Source: a virus (taxonomy: Duplodnaviria; Caudoviricetes). Taken from it: a stretch of 59,308 bases of DNA. Every line of letters starts with the position of its first letter. Position 1 is the stretch's first letter. A program made the position numbers and the translations under genes. Under the pieces are notes generated by a model. That model was not told the DNA's origin. It made no database searches and saw only the letters and a list, made by a program, of their open reading frames with translations. The DNA is taken from IMG/VR virus record IMGVR_UViG_3300030099_001381, positions 1 through 59,308 of that record; one strand, written 5' to 3'. Shown here in pieces: positions 22,920 to 31,562 of the stretch.

Positions 22920-22931
22920 TACCTAGACGAT
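22920..22931 (-). other. Putative remote hammerhead substrate site 5 (AUCGUC/UAGGUA)
   Basis: Exact 12-mer, complementary to the ribozyme arms; predicted cut between 22926 and 22925. Confidence 0.65.
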
Positions 22932-23263
22932 TAATCTAAATCAAAATCCATTTCAAAATCTATTTCATTATCAGGAACTGAAGAACTAAATGGAAATCCT
23001 GACAGCACTGCTATTTGCAAAACTTTATCTCTCATTTCTTGTAATTCTTTTTCTTCTCCATAAAGAAAAACTATACAACAAACCATCATCCAAAAAGAAT
23101 CTTTCTCTACGCAATCATTGTTGTATGTAAGAACTATTTCTTTCTCTGTAAAATTTAATGAAAGAGTATCACCTAATTGATGAATAATTTTAACTTTGTT
23201 GTCATCATCTTCCTGAAGTTTATTTCCACTAGGAAATTCTAAAATTTTTACCATAATCATCAA
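22931..23263 (-). CDS. Hypothetical early protein
   Basis: 110-aa acidic ORF. Confidence 0.6.
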   Translation of the reverse strand: MMIMVKILEFPSGNKLQEDDDNKVKIIHQLGDTLSLNFTEKEIVLTYNNDCVEKDSFWMMVCCIVFLYGEEKELQEMRDKVLQIAVLSGFPFSSSVPDNEIDFEMDFDLD

Positions 23264-24348: not shown

Positions 24349-24360
24349 TACCTAGACGAT
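24349..24360 (-). other. Putative remote hammerhead substrate site 4
   Basis: Exact ATCGTCTAGGTA; predicted cut between 24355 and 24354. Confidence 0.6.
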
Positions 24361-25135: not shown

Positions 25136-25423
25136 TCATATGCTTTCCTCCCTTGGGTTTAATTCTTTATTCACTTCAGATAAAAATTTATCTACACCAT
25201 TGGCTACATCTGTGGGCAATTCAAAATGTTCATACTTACTTTCATGACCATCTCCCCATGTAACATTAAGAGTGTAAATTGCACTATAATCTTTTTCCCA
25301 AACATATTCATCATTTCCAAAATGATAAACTATTTTTGTAGGAACACCTCTTGACTCTAATTCTTCTGTCAATGCATCTCTACTTATTTCATCTTCAGGA
25401 TAGTGTGTATATGTATTACTCAT
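25136..25423 (-). CDS. Hypothetical early protein
   Basis: 95 aa, AGGAGG RBS, ATGA coupling. Confidence 0.65.
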   Translation of the reverse strand: MSNTYTHYPEDEISRDALTEELESRGVPTKIVYHFGNDEYVWEKDYSAIYTLNVTWGDGHESKYEHFELPTDVANGVDKFLSEVNKELNPREESI

Positions 25424-25647
25424 TTGCTTTCCTCCTTAGAAAATAAATATTTAGCATATTTTATACTAATGTTTTTAATATCACCACTAACTAAGTCTTG
25501 AACAACAAAAGGTTTTTTCCAACCTCCTGATCTGAAATCAACAAGGACATATCTTCTTGCTCCTGTCATTGCGATTTTCTTTTCATCAAGACCAAGTCCT
25601 GTAGTCATAAACTTTAATGAACTAATTTTACTCATGTGTTTCTCCAT
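25420..25647 (-). CDS. Hypothetical early protein
   Basis: 75-aa ORF coupled to the downstream gene. Confidence 0.6.
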   Translation of the reverse strand: MEKHMSKISSLKFMTTGLGLDEKKIAMTGARRYVLVDFRSGGWKKPFVVQDLVSGDIKNISIKYAKYLFSKEESK

Positions 25648-25666: not shown

Positions 25667-25678
25667 TACCTAGACGAT
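25667..25678 (-). other. Putative remote hammerhead substrate site 3
   Basis: Exact ATCGTCTAGGTA, preceded by hairpin 25687-25720; predicted cut between 25673 and 25672. Confidence 0.65.
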
Positions 25679-29235: not shown

Positions 29236-29319
29236 GGTAAAATCTCCGTAAAAAAAGATTATTCGTTTTATTAGTTTTTGAATAATCGGTGATGGCTCTG
29301 ACCACACCATGTGATCAAA

Positions 29320-29331
29320 TACCTAGACGAT
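29320..29331 (-). other. Putative remote hammerhead substrate site 2
   Basis: Exact ATCGTCTAGGTA, preceded by hairpin 29337-29359; predicted cut between 29326 and 29325. Confidence 0.65.
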
Positions 29332-29453: not shown

Positions 29454-29714
29454 TTATTTATCCTCCTCTTGAATAATTCCTTGAACAGCTTTTAAGAATT
29501 TATCTCTCTCTTCAGGATGAATATCTGCATCAACATCGAAGGATTCTAATTCCTCAAATAACTCATCATTAGTAAAACCTAATTTCATTTCGTCATTATC
29601 CATATGAATATCTGCATCAACCCAACACCAATTAACAGAACCATCTTCGTTTATGTTTTCTTGATTGTTTAGAGCCTTGATAATCAAATCTTTTATAGTA
29701 ATATTTTTAGTCAT
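29454..29714 (-). CDS. Hypothetical early protein
   Basis: 86 aa, AAGGA RBS; internal duplication VDADIH. Confidence 0.65.
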   Translation of the reverse strand: MTKNITIKDLIIKALNNQENINEDGSVNWCWVDADIHMDNDEMKLGFTNDELFEELESFDVDADIHPEERDKFLKAVQGIIQEEDK

Positions 29715-29743: not shown

Positions 29744-29755
29744 TACCTAGACGAT
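29744..29755 (-). other. Putative remote hammerhead substrate site 1
   Basis: Exact ATCGTCTAGGTA, preceded by hairpin 29763-29783; predicted cut between 29750 and 29749. Confidence 0.65.
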
Positions 29756-29805: not shown

Positions 29806-30408
29806 TTAGATTTGGATATCTTCGAAACCAAAATCAGCTACAACTTTTGCTTTGCCTGTATGATTATTTACGATGATGTCTCCAACACTCAGTGAAGCAA
29901 ATGCTCTTGTGATACTTGGCTCATCATCCTCACCTCTGATCTTTTCGATCATGCTGTAATTACAAATGACATCTTCATAGATATCTTCACCATCTGCATC
30001 CAAGAAAGTATGAGTATTTAAGATTTCAAAAAGATCATCAAAAAATAGTTTACTCATTCCTTTTCTTATTCCTTCGTCAGTTTTTACATCAACAACTTTT
30101 TTCATTCTTGATTTCAAATACTCAGGTTTCCATACTTCTTCAACATCTCTTCTTCTTCCGATGCATCCCATCATAAATGGGAAATCATCTTCCATCGTAG
30201 CAGGTCTTCCATTCATGTATAAATCGTCTCTGTAATCAGGGTCTATTTGGTAGATAGAAAAATCATTGATAAAACTTTCACCATCGCTTTTGATGTTGGT
30301 TAGATATGCAACAGCATCATCTGTATTCAGATAGCATTGAGGTGCAGTTTCATTTGATTTGATGTAGATATGATTTGGGTTTCTTTCTTGATATTTTTTC
30401 ATAGACAT
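29806..30408 (-). CDS. Hypothetical first early protein (C-terminal SLSVGD motif, YodL-like)
   Basis: 200 aa acidic, AAGGAG RBS, ends SLSVGDIIV...GFEDI. Confidence 0.65.
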   Translation of the reverse strand: MSMKKYQERNPNHIYIKSNETAPQCYLNTDDAVAYLTNIKSDGESFINDFSIYQIDPDYRDDLYMNGRPATMEDDFPFMMGCIGRRRDVEEVWKPEYLKSRMKKVVDVKTDEGIRKGMSKLFFDDLFEILNTHTFLDADGEDIYEDVICNYSMIEKIRGEDDEPSITRAFASLSVGDIIVNNHTGKAKVVADFGFEDIQI

Positions 30409-30441
30409 GATTGTCTCCTTGTTTTGTTAGTAGGCAAAATC

Positions 30442-30613
30442 ACCTAGACCATTTGAAAAATCAGGTGGACACAACCTCACCGATCATGCCCACCGATTTT
30501 CTAATCGTTTCGATCACTTAACCCTTGCGTGGAAACCACGATCCTTACAGGGCATAACTACAACTTTGTTGATTAACTTGTGAAGCAGATCATCATCAGT
30601 AGGCTCTTCACAA
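30442..30613 (-). ncRNA. Type I hammerhead ribozyme with extended stems II and III
   Basis: GCCUA(30604-30600)-CUGAUGA(30599-30593)-U-GAUC...GAUC-GAAA(30511-30508)-CGAUU...AAUG-GUC/UAGGU(30449-30442); stems I, II and III all form; 8-bp UUGUGAAG/CUUCACAA pairing links the 5' flank to the stem II insert. Confidence 0.8.
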
Positions 30614-30834
30614 TTCGCAGGGTACTGCTTATTAGATTCCCTATGGCACACCTCTTCGATGATTTAATGATCGGTTCGCACAGCTATCGATAGATCAAGC
30701 AAACTTCCTCTCAGTACCACCCCTTGCATCTCAATTCTTCCGATGACTAACTATGTTGGGTTCTAATCAGATTGGGATATTTAATCTGATCATCATAAAA
30801 GCCTAAAATGTCCTCCTCTTGGTTAACTTCGTAG

Positions 30835-30864
30835 AAGTTACAGGACGAATGCACCTTTTGTCAA
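30835..30864 (-). promoter_or_regulatory. Candidate sigma70 early promoter
   Basis: TTGACA-18 nt-TAACTT with AT-rich upstream element, pointing into the ribozyme-containing leader. Confidence 0.5.
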
Positions 30865-31031
30865 CTAATTAATATATCTTTTTTATATTATATATATTCC
30901 CTAGGGAATAGTTATCAGCCTTGGGTTTCCGAGGATTTGTATTTGTACTATAAATTAACTCTTGTTAACTATTTTGTACTGATGCTATTTTTTTTACACG
31001 ATTTTGGATAATTTCGAATCAGGGAAATATT

Positions 31032-31562
31032 ATGAAAGATGATGATAAAAATAAATTTGTACCAAAGATTGTCGGTGGAAAAAATTCAGGGAACAAGAAA
31101 AAAGAATTAACATCGAAACAAGAAGCCTTCGCACAGGCAATTGTATTTGGGGTAATGGATGACGACACAGGCAAGAAGAGACATTTGAATGCATCTGACT
31201 GTTACAGATCAGTCTACAATGTAGGGAAGACCACCAAACCTTCATCGGTATGGACTGAAGCATCCAAGTTATTATCGAACCCTATGGTCTCGCAAAGGGT
31301 GACCCAACTAAAAGAGCAAATGAAGACCCATGCACTATCTTCTTCGCTCTCGGAAAGAGACAAAATAATTGAGAGACTTTGGGCAATGGCTGACAATGGT
31401 CAAGCAGAAGCATCTCAATTAAGATCATTAGAGTTATTAGGAAAGAGCATTGGTCTATTTTCTGATAGGGTTGAAATATCAGAGACCAAAGACCTTGATA
31501 CTGTAGAGCAAGAGTTAGTTGAAAAGCTAGTAGCCTTGCAACAAACCGATAATAAAAAATAA
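31032..31562 (+). CDS. terS: Terminase small subunit
   Basis: LTSKQEAF...ASDCYRSVY...ASKLL HTH pattern and SLELLGKSIGLF motif; first gene of the late arm. Confidence 0.8.
   Translation: MKDDDKNKFVPKIVGGKNSGNKKKELTSKQEAFAQAIVFGVMDDDTGKKRHLNASDCYRSVYNVGKTTKPSSVWTEASKLLSNPMVSQRVTQLKEQMKTHALSSSLSERDKIIERLWAMADNGQAEASQLRSLELLGKSIGLFSDRVEISETKDLDTVEQELVEKLVALQQTDNKK

What the first reader, a model, noticed from the sequence alone, without database searches (positions are those of the whole stretch)
30442..30613. Unusual hammerhead architecture: the cis site is a poorer match than the remote sites
Seen: the ribozyme's own substrate reads AUGGUC/UAGGUG, placing a G-G mismatch (30506 x 30450) in stem III, whereas all remote sites read AUCGUC and pair fully. 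There is an extra U between A9 and G10.1, a ~70-nt branched insert in stem II (CAAC/GUUG, GCCCU/AGGGU and CGUGG/CCACG helices), a long hairpin extending stem III, and an 8-bp pairing of 30613-30606 with 30585-30578. Established: an extra nucleotide at that core position is tolerated in some natural viroid/satellite hammerheads, and stem I-stem II contacts boost activity. Inference: the mismatch would let remote substrates displace the cis strand after self-cleavage, freeing an enzyme for turnover.
Basis: partly seen in the sequence, partly recalled or inferred. Interest (0 to 1): 0.8.

Follow-up and report, generated by a model that had tools for sequence, protein, structure and literature searches.

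The report
One hammerhead, five coreless target sites
A marine phage encodes one elaborate hammerhead-type RNA enzyme, plus five extra copies of only its target sequence in front of downstream genes, so a single catalytic RNA may cut the long message at many places, which has not been shown for a natural hammerhead.

Summary
Observation confirmed. Minus strand 30613-30442 holds every invariant hammerhead nucleotide (CUGAUGA, GAAA, G10.1-C11.1, A15.1-U16.1, C17). It also has an extra U after A9, a ~70-nt branched stem II, an 8-bp pseudoknot-type helix and a long stem III.

Six distinct variants in related marine phage contigs keep the core and both arms while the inserts covary. Rfam, and my own model of the relatives' compact hammerheads, do not score it significantly. 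Membership therefore rests on the core, the homologous flanks and the context.

Five core-less copies of AUCGUC|UAGGUA lie downstream on the same strand (0.07 expected), each matching both arms. Relatives outside this clade carry a complete hammerhead at such junctions instead.

The G-G mismatch occurs in 4 of 6 variants. The arm stays complementary to the remote sites, not to its own site. The stem III extension is also a terminator-like hairpin, which could release a substrate-free enzyme RNA.

Best reading (about 0.5): one ribozyme cuts the operon transcript at several sites in trans. The main rival is cis-only cleavage, with the sites serving another role. There is no RNA evidence.

This scan has noted the same one-core, many-sites layout in at least six other phage genomes (unchecked by me). 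I found no paper describing it.

The parts
30835..30909 (-). Promoter-like region for the ribozyme RNA: 14-bp palindrome (30909-30896) followed by TATAAT (30892-30887); TTGACA (30864-30859), 17 nt, then TAACTT (30840-30835).
   Evidence: Read from the sequence and conserved in relatives. Inferred; no transcript start is known.
30614..30834 (-). ORF-free conserved 5' domain of the same RNA. It includes a 72-nt block (30791-30720) identical in L005 (one base missing), L006 and L021 (one substitution).
   Evidence: Alignments. 5 of 45 predicted pairs have a compensatory change. Function unknown.
30606..30613 (-). 5' strand of the pseudoknot-type helix P0 (UUGUGAAG).
   Evidence: 8 bp with 30585-30578. 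One pair changes on both sides (UA/CG), and one runs AU, GU, GC, with one A.C. L005 has AUGGUG/CACCAU at the same place.
30600..30604 (-). Stem I enzyme arm GCCUA.
   Evidence: Pairs with UAGGU of the cis site and of all five remote sites. Invariant in 5 clade rows; ACCUA in L005.
30592..30599 (-). Core CUGAUGA (C3-A9) plus the extra U at 30592.
   Evidence: Invariant in all 6 variants. An extra U or C after A9 is also found in the relatives' compact hammerheads L061, L079 and L058.
30588..30591 (-). Stem II 5' strand GAUC (G10.1 = 30591).
   Evidence: Pairs with 30515-30512. L005 has GACUU/AAGUC instead.
30578..30585 (-). 3' strand of P0 (CUUCACAA), lying inside loop II.
30521..30571 (-). Branched insert in stem II: hairpin CAAC/GUUG (30571-30561), and GCCCU/AGGGU with inner CGUGG/CCACG (30553-30521).
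   Evidence: CAAC/GUUG becomes CAGC/GCUG in 4 of 5 rows. GCCCU/AGGGU becomes GCCAU/AUGGU in 3 of 5 rows. The inner hairpin is present in only 2 of 5 rows.
30508..30515 (-). Stem II 3' strand GAUC (C11.1 = 30512) and GAAA (G12-A14, A15.1 = 30508).
   Evidence: Invariant in the clade rows; UCGAAACGAU is kept in all 6 variants.
30503..30508 (-). Stem III enzyme arm ACGAUU (G15.3 = 30506).
   Evidence: ACGAU is invariant in all 6 variants. It is fully complementary to AUCGU of the remote sites and faces G30450 in cis.
30454..30502 (-). Stem III extension, which is also a terminator-like element: A-tract AGAAAAUC, a 13-bp hairpin at 30494-30464, and U-tract UGAUUUUUCA.
   Evidence: First in the list of terminator-like sites (10 found; 3.0 +/- 2.0 in shuffles). 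7 pairs keep pairing through one-sided changes.
30442..30453 (-). Cis site AAUGGUC|UAGGU. The predicted cut is after C30447; G30450 makes the G-G mismatch.
30406..30446 (-). Leader of the first gene: hairpin UAGG-UGAUUUUG-CCUA, an A-rich tail, AAGGAG and the ATG of ORF 29806-30408.
29744..29755 (-). Core-less site 1, AUCGUC|UAGGUA (C17 = 29750). It lies after the hairpin GGGGGAA..UUCCCCC and before ORF 29454-29714.
   Evidence: No CTGANGA within 160 nt upstream.
29320..29331 (-). Core-less site 2 (C17 = 29326). It lies after the hairpin GAGAGAGG..CCUCUCUC and before the ATPase gene.
25667..25678 (-). Core-less site 3 (C17 = 25673). It lies after the hairpin GAGAGGGGAUC..GAUCCCCUCUU and before ORF 25420-25647.
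24349..24360 (-). Core-less site 4 (C17 = 24355), 35 nt downstream of a palindrome/promoter-like element.
22920..22931 (-). Core-less site 5 (C17 = 22926), directly after the stop of ORF 22931-23263 and before a small ORF.

Best explanation
The minus strand from about 30890 to 30455 encodes a roughly 400-nt non-coding RNA whose 3' half is an expanded type I hammerhead ribozyme.

Its arms are GCCUA and ACGAU(U). Between them lie a complete catalytic core with an extra U after A9, and a 4-bp stem II whose large loop forms an 8-bp pseudoknot-type helix with the 5' flank. That helix clamps stems I and II together.

Directly after the 3' arm comes a terminator-like hairpin. Transcripts that stop there are enzyme strands without a substrate. 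This is the same layout as engineered trans-cleaving hammerheads.

These RNAs pair with AUCGUC|UAGGU at five junctions of the downstream leftward operon (22.9-29.8 kb) and cut after the C. Each upstream message is left ending in a stable hairpin. Each downstream message starts with a 5'-OH and a small hairpin ahead of its ribosome-binding site.

Read-through transcripts can also cut the sixth site (30447) in cis. That site pairs less well in this sub-clade.

Shown: the sequence anatomy, its conservation, the excess of target sites over cores, and the contrast with relatives. Inferred: catalysis, termination, action in trans, and the consequences for the messages.
For: 1. Core and arms. All invariant hammerhead positions are present and identical in 6 of 6 distinct variants, while the sequence between CUGAUGA and GAAA differs (81, 70, 63 nt).

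2. Structure under selection. Compensatory double changes occur in P0, IIa and IIb (one pair each). By direct reading, stem II is GAUC/GAUC versus GACUU/AAGUC, and P0 is GUGAAG/CUUCAC versus AUGGUG/CACCAU in L005.

3. Family context. A model built from 13 compact type I hammerheads of phages with a related small terminase gives 27 matches at E<=0.01, in 20 of 79 such loci. 12 of these rows (10 distinct sequences) were not in the seed, and all lie on the strand opposite terS. They share the flanks CCUA/CCAA-CUGAUGA and GUC|UAGGUAAUU/UUGGUAAUU with the window. Some share the extra base after A9. L098 has the same stem III sequence, ACGAUUC/GAAUCGU.

4. Targets. There are 5 core-less sites against 0.07 expected. 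All lie on the ribozyme's strand, at gene junctions in front of coding regions (site 5 starts right after the stop codon of ORF 22931-23263). 0 of 5 have CTGANGA within 160 nt upstream.

5. Clade-wide conservation. Across the clade there are 14 distinct core-less sites. 12 read AUCGUC, one reads AUUGUC (still a G-U pair) and one UUCGUC, while sequence beyond position -7 is not conserved. The conserved 5+1+5 nt equals the conserved part of the two arms.

6. Contrast with relatives. Outside the clade every intergenic target has its own core (G001, G002, G005, L044, L045, L052, L073, L107). The few extra pattern matches lie inside coding sequence. Stem III sequences of those cis ribozymes vary freely, whereas the core-less sites are uniform, as expected if they share one partner.

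7. Cis mismatch. In 4 of 6 variants the cis site mismatches G15.3, yet the arm kept the base that pairs with the remote sites.

8. Terminator. A terminator-like hairpin lies between the arm and the cis site.

9. Energetics. The hammerhead fold at -42.3 kcal/mol, plus P0 at about -7, is comparable to the MFE of -51.9. Arm duplexes are -3.5 to -4.3 kcal/mol (helix III, remote sites) against -0.5 (cis), and -4.1 for helix I, at 37 C.
Against: - No Rfam hammerhead model matches at any threshold tried.
- My model R1 aligns the window element in exactly the proposed register, but at only 11.0 bits, E = 0.6. It ranks second among 21 noise-level matches in 9.5 kb. It finds 0 of 6 clade loci at E<=0.01.
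- Within the five window-type variants, stems I and II never vary, so they carry no covariation. The only changes come from L005, read by eye.
- L005/L006 carry two hairpins (33 nt) between A9 and G10.1. No described hammerhead I know has this, so that variant may be inactive or my model incomplete.
- MFE folds do not form the hammerhead.
- The arms are short, and the UAGG of most targets is also paired in a local hairpin. Local folds of the site regions are -3.7 to -14 kcal/mol.
- The mismatch is absent in 2 of 6 variants.
- The 14-mer of the sites is 11/14 identical to a genome-wide DNA palindrome, so a DNA-level origin or role is possible.
- The rows of the covariation test on relatives were picked by a descriptor that demands pairing.
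- There is no RNA-level evidence of any cut.
Confidence: 0.5

Rival explanations
1. Cis-only hammerhead. The RNA is a genuine type I hammerhead that only cuts its own site at 30447, separating the leader RNA from the first message. The five core-less motifs are copies of the same leader cassette kept for another reason: a site for a phage or host protein (RNA-binding regulator or endoribonuclease), a promoter or operator element, or a recombination linker. They match the arms only because the cis site is one more copy.
For: - A hammerhead at the head of, or between, genes is the normal layout in relatives.
- The sites are followed by conserved leader hairpins and ribosome-binding sites, which could be the selected part.
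- The site 14-mer is 11/14 identical to the clade-specific palindrome ATTCYCTAGRGAAT, which has 11 copies in the window and 0 in G001-G005.
- The arms are short and the targets partly folded.
- In 2 of 6 variants the cis site pairs perfectly.
Against: - The five nucleotides 5' of the cut (AUCGU) lie outside the leader hairpin, yet 12 of 14 distinct sites conserve them. The only change at 16.3 keeps a G-U pair.
- In 4 of 6 variants the arm matches the remote sites and not its own site, without compensation, although other helices were compensated.
- No sigma-70 region 2 or 4 domain was found in the genome. The T7-type RNA polymerase search was uninformative because its control did not ring.
- At two sites the motif lies downstream of promoter-like elements, so it is transcribed.
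- The motif has no -35/-10 form (read from sequence; one search lists no promoter hit on it).
Confidence: 0.3
2. Not an active ribozyme. The element is a structured leader or small RNA with a degenerate hammerhead-derived core. It acts by antisense pairing with the repeated motif without cutting (for example masking or exposing leaders), or merely as a terminator/attenuator in front of the operon.
For: - No significant score with any hammerhead model.
- Insertions at the A9/G10.1 junction: 1 nt here, 33 nt in L005.
- A terminator-like hairpin.
- The MFE prefers the P0 hairpin with the core in its loop.
Against: - All catalytic nucleotides are intact in 6 of 6 variants despite about 14% divergence elsewhere. 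A decaying core would not be kept.
- An extra nucleotide at this position is tolerated in the CChMVd(+) hammerhead (passage in PMC1636495). It also recurs in the relatives' compact hammerheads.
- Both arms end exactly at the core, as needed for cleavage geometry.
Confidence: 0.15
3. Chance resemblance in an AT-rich intergenic region.
For: My loose descriptor gives 2 spurious hits in this genome. The pattern scans returned 6 of 10 and 5 of 10 unrelated coding hits.
Against: - The element is conserved with core and arms in 6 distinct variants from several sources.
- There was 1 hit in 3000 simulated genomes.
- Five targets were found against 0.07 expected.
Confidence: 0.02

Closest known systems
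Clustered complete hammerheads flanking genes in prophage and phage transcripts (Perreault et al. 2011, PMC3088659; sections 6 and 7 and passages read)
   Same: The setting is a phage polycistronic transcript. The ribozymes sit at gene junctions, and the proposed role is cutting long messages into single-gene or operon-length pieces. About 40% of known hammerheads are reported to use a pseudoknot between stems I and II. Relatives of this phage have exactly this layout, with up to 3 complete hammerheads in 5.4 kb in L061.
   Different: Here only one junction has a catalytic core. Five others keep just the substrate half, uniform in sequence and complementary to that one core's arms.
Pseudoknot-containing type I hammerheads (Rfam RF03152 RAGATH-1-hammerhead; crystal structure by Zhan et al. 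2024, PMC11300833, passages read)
   Same: Nucleotides just after the short stem II 5' strand pair with a segment 5' of stem I. This gives a 6-8 bp helix that holds stems I and II parallel. The relatives' compact forms hit RF03152 at 25-31 bits, below its cut-off of 56.3.
   Different: The 5' partner is not the loop of an extra hairpin (helix IV), and there is no AUAAAA linker. Stem II is kept (4 bp), and its loop also carries two or three further hairpins. The window element gets no RF03152 match at all.
Discontinuous (split) hammerhead in mammalian Clec2 3' UTRs (Martick et al. 2008, not read; as described in Hammann & Westhof 2009, PMC2920678, passages read)
   Same: Enzyme and substrate segments are far apart. 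Related messages carry the substrate but no enzyme, which raised the still open question of whether a natural hammerhead works as a true enzyme in trans.
   Different: It is mammalian, with one substrate per enzyme on the same transcript. Here there are five extra substrates spread over 7.5 kb of a phage operon, and a terminator that could release the enzyme as a separate RNA.
Engineered trans-cleaving hammerheads of the Haseloff-Gerlach design (recalled, not from a call; trans designs with tertiary motifs appear in the search listing, e.g. PMC3064770)
   Same: The order is 5' arm (helix I), CUGAUGA, closed stem II, GAAA, 3' arm (helix III), with the target carrying GUC. The arms are short, about 5+5 nt, as in multiple-turnover constructs.
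   Different: This one is natural, carries a pseudoknot clamp and a 5' domain, and is encoded next to its targets.
Viroid hammerheads with an extra core nucleotide: CChMVd(+) has A10 between A9 and G10.1 (passage in PMC1636495)
   Same: An extra nucleotide at the same junction. It is tolerated, with a moderate loss of trans-cleavage rate.
   Different: The extra base is U rather than A. One variant (L005) has 33 nt in two hairpins at this point.

Membership tests
Hammerhead ribozyme (Rfam clan CL00010) | Conserved core: C3 U4 G5 A6 N7 G8 A9, G12 A13 A14, G10.1-C11.1, A15.1-U16.1, and H17 not G. | tested here: met
   All are present at 30599-30593, 30511-30508, 30591/30512, 30508/30448 and C30447, and identical in 6 of 6 variants, with H17 = A in L005. 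One extra U lies after A9.
Hammerhead ribozyme (Rfam clan CL00010) | Three helices around the core, supported by covariation. | tested here: inconclusive
   All three helices can form. In the 5 window-type rows, stems I and II never vary, and stem III has a G-G in 4 of 5 rows. Stem II changes to GACUU/AAGUC only in L005 (by eye). In the wider family, 13 of 17 pairs change on both sides and 0 of 500 shuffles reach the observed score, but those rows were chosen by a pairing descriptor.
Hammerhead ribozyme (Rfam clan CL00010) | Score at or above the curated cut-off of an Rfam hammerhead model. | tested here: not met
   0 matches at gathering score in the whole window. No hammerhead family appears among 7 matches (E<=10, 1.2 kb) or 6 matches (196 nt). 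The compact hammerheads of relatives also miss the cut-offs: 0 matches in 16 loci, best 33.9 bits against 48.5.
Hammerhead ribozyme (Rfam clan CL00010) | Significant similarity to a covariance model of related phages' type I hammerheads. | tested here: not met
   R1 aligns 30605-30437 in the proposed register, but at 11.0 bits, E = 0.6, second of 21 weak matches. 0 of 6 clade loci match at E<=0.01. The 72-nt and 19-nt insertions are penalised.
Hammerhead ribozyme (Rfam clan CL00010) | Site-specific self-cleavage giving a 2',3'-cyclic phosphate and a 5'-OH. | not testable with these tools
The one sequencing run found was contigs only.
Pseudoknot-stabilised hammerheads (Perreault 2011; RF03152) | Watson-Crick helix between loop II nucleotides and a segment attached to stem I. 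| tested here: met
   8 bp, 30613-30606 with 30585-30578. The pair types are UA/CG at one pair and AU/GU/GC at another. L005 has a wholly different but complementary pair of strands.
Natural trans-acting (multiple-substrate) hammerhead (no described family) | Substrate sites without their own core that match both arms, in excess of chance and of the number of cores. | tested here: met
   1 core and 5 core-less targets in the window, with 0.07 expected. The other clade loci show the same excess. None is seen in 5 whole relatives' genomes or the distant loci once coding-sequence chance hits are set aside.
Natural trans-acting (multiple-substrate) hammerhead (no described family) | Cleavage at the remote sites that depends on the ribozyme. 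| not testable with these tools
   No RNA end data are available.
PreQ1-I riboswitch (RF00522), considered for the leader hairpin plus A-rich tail | Score at the curated cut-off. | tested here: not met
   14.7 bits against 39, E = 6.1, at 30413-30452.

The most novel reading that the evidence does not exclude
A phage-encoded hammerhead is made as a free, terminated small RNA. It works as a true multiple-turnover endoribonuclease, guided by two 5-nt arms to five or six junctions of the phage's own operon transcript. It would then be an RNA-only message-processing system that replaces the one-ribozyme-per-junction layout of related phages. The weakened cis site and the terminator would be adaptations that keep the enzyme free.
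Probability: 0.45. Interest if true: 0.9.

Novelty: new variant of a known kind. Interest (0 to 1): 0.75.

Why it matters
All natural small self-cleaving ribozymes characterised so far cut themselves once. Whether any hammerhead works in nature as a real enzyme on other RNAs has been an open question since the split Clec2 hammerhead was found (Hammann & Westhof 2009, PMC2920678, passages read).

This phage clade offers a compact, directly testable case. It has one core and five uniform targets. There is a natural 'control' in the form of a mismatched cis site and two variants without the mismatch. Close relatives solve the same task with complete cis ribozymes.

If confirmed, it would show how a cis ribozyme evolves into a guide-directed RNA endonuclease. 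It would also explain what phage hammerheads are for, namely punctuation of polycistronic messages into hairpin-protected pieces.

My literature searches found no description of such a layout. The same layout has been noted by this scan in at least six other phage genomes with other arm sequences (AI notes, not checked by me). If those notes hold, this is a recurrent strategy.

Tried and rejected
**Rfam.** I searched the whole window at gathering score, 1.2 kb and 196 nt at E<=10. No hammerhead appeared. I do not treat this as refutation, because the compact hammerheads of relatives also miss the cut-offs.

**PreQ1-I riboswitch for the leader.** Rejected at 14.7 bits against a cut-off of 39.

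**Phage record search with the DNA.** No match.

**Named relatives by TerL.** Phage DSL-LC04 is 58% identical, Pelagibacter phage HTVC027P 54%, phage 023Pt_psg01 57% and HTVC023P 52%. My descriptor and model R1 find no hammerhead in the 34-41 kb fetched from each, so no cultured phage with this system is at hand.

**Upstream conserved block in prokaryote genomes.** 0 stretches.

**Single-protein locus searches.** These returned only clade members.

**Sequencing runs.** No RNA holder was listed. One run of uncertain kind (X1, contigs, share 0.14) was laid. It holds low-depth contigs of a relative and shows no starts or ends, so it says nothing on expression or cleavage.

**Promoter reading of the 12-mer.**
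- It has no -35/-10 form.
- The sigma-70 region 2 and 4 searches of the genome were empty, with working controls.
- The T7-type polymerase search was uninformative because its control did not ring.

**Remnant cores next to the remote sites.** None of 5 has CTGANGA within 160 nt upstream.

**Other genomes with more targets than cores.** The only excesses outside the clade were wobble-pattern matches inside coding sequence, or sites that each have their own type III core.

**Local hairpin CGAUU-AGAA-AAUCG.** It could sequester the 3' arm in the window, but it is not conserved in the other variants, so I dropped it.

**MFE folding.** It favours P0 and does not form the hammerhead. A pseudoknot cannot be scored by that program.

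**Supplements of papers** were not opened. Perreault et al.'s figures S4-S7 and Dataset S1 may list similar variants.
Full report
**What the window is.** The window is a complete 59,308-bp virus record (CheckV 100%) with 30-38% G+C. Its large terminase is 52-58% identical to those of Phage DSL-LC04, phage 023Pt_psg01 and Pelagibacter phages HTVC027P and HTVC023P. Near-identical or related contigs come from marine metagenomes.

The finding lies in the 620-bp divergent region between the small terminase gene (31032-31562, +) and a leftward operon. That operon runs from 30408 to about 22200 and encodes an AAA-type ATPase, a DUF2201/VWA-like protein and many small unknown proteins.

**The observation.** Read on the minus strand, the region gives, in order:
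- UUGUGAAG (30613-30606), then AG.
- GCCUA (30604-30600).
- CUGAUGA (30599-30593), then an extra U (30592).
- GAUC (30591-30588), then UG.
- CUUCACAA (30585-30578), which pairs with 30613-30606.
- A hairpin CAAC-AAA-GUUG, then GCCCU...AGGGU enclosing CGUGG-UUU-CCACG.
- GAUC (30515-30512), GAAA (30511-30508) and ACGAUU (30508-30503).
- An A-tract, a 13-bp hairpin (30494-30464) and a U-tract.
- AAUGGUC (30453-30447), then UAGGU (30446-30442).

The topology (stems II and III closed, stem I open) is type I.

**Homologues.** Protein-anchored and pattern searches recovered six distinct variants: window (= L025), L007 (= L019), L012, L023, L021, and L005 (= L006, L008, L009, L024 in this part).
- The viral pattern scan gave 10 stretches, of which 4 were family and 6 unrelated coding hits.
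- The metagenome scan gave 10 stretches, of which 5 were family and 5 unrelated.

All six variants keep CCUA-CUGAUGA and UCGAAACGAU, while the stretch between them is 81, 70 or 63 nt and differs in sequence.

On the five well-aligned rows, 95.1% of cells pair (36-42% when the partner is slid). Compensatory double changes occur in P0, IIa and IIb. Stems I and II are invariant and so uninformative. The long stem III hairpin keeps pairing through seven one-sided changes.

L005 replaces GAUC/GAUC by GACUU/AAGUC, and GUGAAG/CUUCAC by AUGGUG/CACCAU. It also carries two hairpins (33 nt) between A9 and G10.1. I cannot explain this insertion.

**Model-based tests.** These fail or are weak, and I report them as such.
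- Rfam gives no hammerhead match at any setting.
- A covariance model (R1) built from 13 compact hammerheads of related phages aligns 30605-30437 in exactly the proposed register. It treats the extra U and the 72-nt stem II interior as insertions and flags the G-G. The score is only 11.0 bits, E = 0.6, second among 21 weak matches.
- The compact hammerheads of relatives themselves miss Rfam's cut-offs. There were 0 matches in 16 loci at gathering score. The best scores were Hammerhead_3 at 33.9 of 48.5 bits and RAGATH-1-hammerhead at 25-31 of 56.3 bits.

A blank in Rfam is therefore not strong evidence here.

**The wider family.** An alignment of small-terminase homologues brought in 79 loci of more distant phages (29-43% identity).
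- R1 finds 27 matches at E<=0.01, in 20 of these 79 loci. All lie on the strand opposite terS, and 12 rows (10 distinct) were outside the seed.
- They are compact type I hammerheads lying 25-45 nt before start codons, for example UAAACCUA-CUGAUGA-GCCAA..UUGGC-GAAA-CUAGAU..AUCUAGU-C|UAGGUAAUUA.
- Up to three occur in 5.4 kb, in L061.
- Their stems covary strongly: 13 of 17 pairs change on both sides, and 0 of 500 shuffles reach the score. The caveat is that my descriptor selected these rows for pairing.
- Several have an extra U or C after A9 (L058, L061, L079), or the recurrent CUGAUGA-U-UAGC..GCUA-U-GAAA form.
- L098 has the stem III sequence ACGAUUC/GAAUCGU.
- Type III hammerheads placed directly after GC-rich hairpins also occur, in L052 and L107.

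This is the layout Perreault et al. described for prophages. They proposed that it cuts long phage transcripts into gene-length messages, and they showed that pseudoknots between stems I and II are common and needed for fast cleavage (PMC3088659, sections 6 and 7). The window element shares arms and cleavage context with these ribozymes. I read it as an expanded member of the same lineage.

**The remote sites.** ATCGTHTAGG occurs five times in the window, all on the minus strand, against 0.07 expected. All five read AUCGUC|UAGGUA.
- They lie in the leftward operon at 29750, 29326, 25673, 24355 and 22926 (position of the C).
- Three follow a GC-rich hairpin with a weak U run.
- All five lie ahead of coding regions; three are followed by a leader hairpin, A-rich tail and ribosome-binding site, and one by a different conserved hairpin.
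- None has CTGANGA within 160 nt upstream.

In the clade as a whole I count 14 distinct core-less sites. Of these, 12 read AUCGUC, one AUUGUC (G-U with G15.3) and one UUCGUC. Sequence beyond position -7 is unconserved. The regex used there fixes positions -4 to +6, so only the outer boundary and positions -6 and -5 are independent evidence.

The conserved target (AUCGU, C, UAGGU) has the same extent as the invariant parts of the two arms (ACGAU, CCUA plus G/A).

Outside the clade, every intergenic site of this kind has its own core. The only surplus pattern matches lie in coding sequence. Five whole genomes of relatives (G001-G005) have no core-less sites.

**The cis mismatch.** AUGGUC is found in window, L007, L012 and L023. 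L021 has AUCGUC and L005/L006 have AUCGUA. The mismatch is therefore a sub-clade feature, not a general one.

It is still telling. While P0, IIa and IIb were repaired by double changes during the divergence of these variants, G15.3 was never changed to match its cis partner. It kept the base that pairs with the remote sites.

The 'stem III extension' is the first entry in the scan's list of terminator-like sites in the region: 13 pairs followed by UGAUUUUU, with a matching upstream A-tract. L021 and L005 have UGUUUUUU.

It lies between the 3' arm and the cis site. RNA ending there would be arm, core, closed stem II, arm, with no substrate attached. That is the design of engineered trans-cleaving hammerheads (recalled). 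The cis site then looks like just another 'hairpin, then site, then leader' module, of the kind seen at the other junctions.

**Energetics.**
- The nested hammerhead fold is -42.3 kcal/mol, plus about -7 for P0. The MFE is -51.9, and it uses P0 but not stem II.
- Arm duplexes are -3.5 to -4.3 kcal/mol (helix III, remote sites) against -0.5 (cis site), and -4.1 for helix I, at 37 C. All are stronger at 15 C.
- Local folding of the site regions (-3.7 to -14 kcal/mol) must be opened.

Binding would therefore be weak and reversible. That suits turnover, but it may also mean inefficiency.

**Rivals.**
- The main rival is a cis-only ribozyme, with the 12-mers serving another factor. A lead in its favour: the site 14-mer is 11/14 identical to a clade-specific palindrome ATTCYCTAGRGAAT. 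That palindrome has 11 copies in the window, in coding and non-coding DNA, and none in G001-G005. It is likely a DNA-level site.
- Against a promoter role: the motif has no -35/-10 form. It lies downstream of promoter-like elements at two sites. No sigma-70 domains were found; the polymerase search had a silent control.
- A non-catalytic antisense or attenuator RNA, and pure chance, are less likely.

**Literature and earlier notes.** My searches found no description of a natural hammerhead with several core-less targets.

This scan's own notes list the same one-core, many-sites layout in at least six other phage genomes, some with different arm sequences. These are unchecked AI notes, and I could not fetch those genomes. 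I use them as leads only. They raise my odds slightly and mean that this instance is not unique.

**Verdict.** The element is a real and unusual hammerhead-type RNA (about 0.85). That it cuts the five remote sites in trans is plausible and favoured (about 0.5), but unproven.

Noticed in passing
window 7450, 14093, 18605, 20986, 22415, 24404, 27059, 30896, 39594, 43685, 55064: The 14-bp palindrome ATTCYCTAGRGAAT has 11 copies, in coding and intergenic DNA. It is also present in clade loci L007, L012, L023 and L006, and absent from five relatives' genomes. It is 11/14 identical to the hammerhead target 14-mer, and sits next to TATAAT upstream of the ribozyme RNA.
   Followed up: partly
window 30614-30834 (-): An ORF-free conserved 5' domain of the ribozyme RNA. 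Its 72-nt block (30791-30720) is unchanged in L006 and lacks one base in L005, although the neighbouring protein is only about 70% identical. RNAalifold gives 45 pairs, 5 of them with compensatory changes.
   Followed up: partly
L005 2340-2372 (and L006, L008, L009, L024): Two hairpins (CCGAUC-AAG-GAUCGG and AUAUCUC-UUCG-GAGAUAU) sit between A9 and G10.1 of an otherwise intact core. I know of no hammerhead with such an insertion.
   Followed up: no
L005 3080-3227; L006 1754-1901; L021 6255-6402: A second hammerhead-like match lies inside the 200-aa ORF. Stems I and II are 8 bp each but rich in G-U pairs, 10.1-11.1 is G-U and H17 is U. It is not present in the window's copy of the gene and is probably spurious.
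   Followed up: no
L061, L053, L051, L072, L045, L076, L077 (coordinates): A recurrent hammerhead subtype, CUGAUGA-U-UAGC-UGARAU-GCUA-U-GAAA, has U opposite U at 10.1/11.1 and A at the cleavage position.
   Followed up: no
L052 (-) 4007 and 5231; L107 (-) 1469 and 1991: Pairs of type III hammerheads are placed directly after GC-rich hairpins in distant relatives. The 'hairpin then cut site' module is the same as in the window, but here each has its own core.
   Followed up: no
window 29311-29328 (-) and orthologous sites in L007, L012, L005: A second leader type follows the cut site: a conserved hairpin GAUCACA-UGG-UGUGGUC with pairing-preserving changes. It includes the ATG that the ORF listing takes as the ATPase start, so the real start is probably further downstream.
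   Followed up: no
window 24420 joined to 30417 in run X1: One contig of a related phage joins these two places, skipping 6 kb. This suggests a relative with a rearranged or shorter leftward operon.
   Followed up: no
I did not look at it.
   Followed up: no
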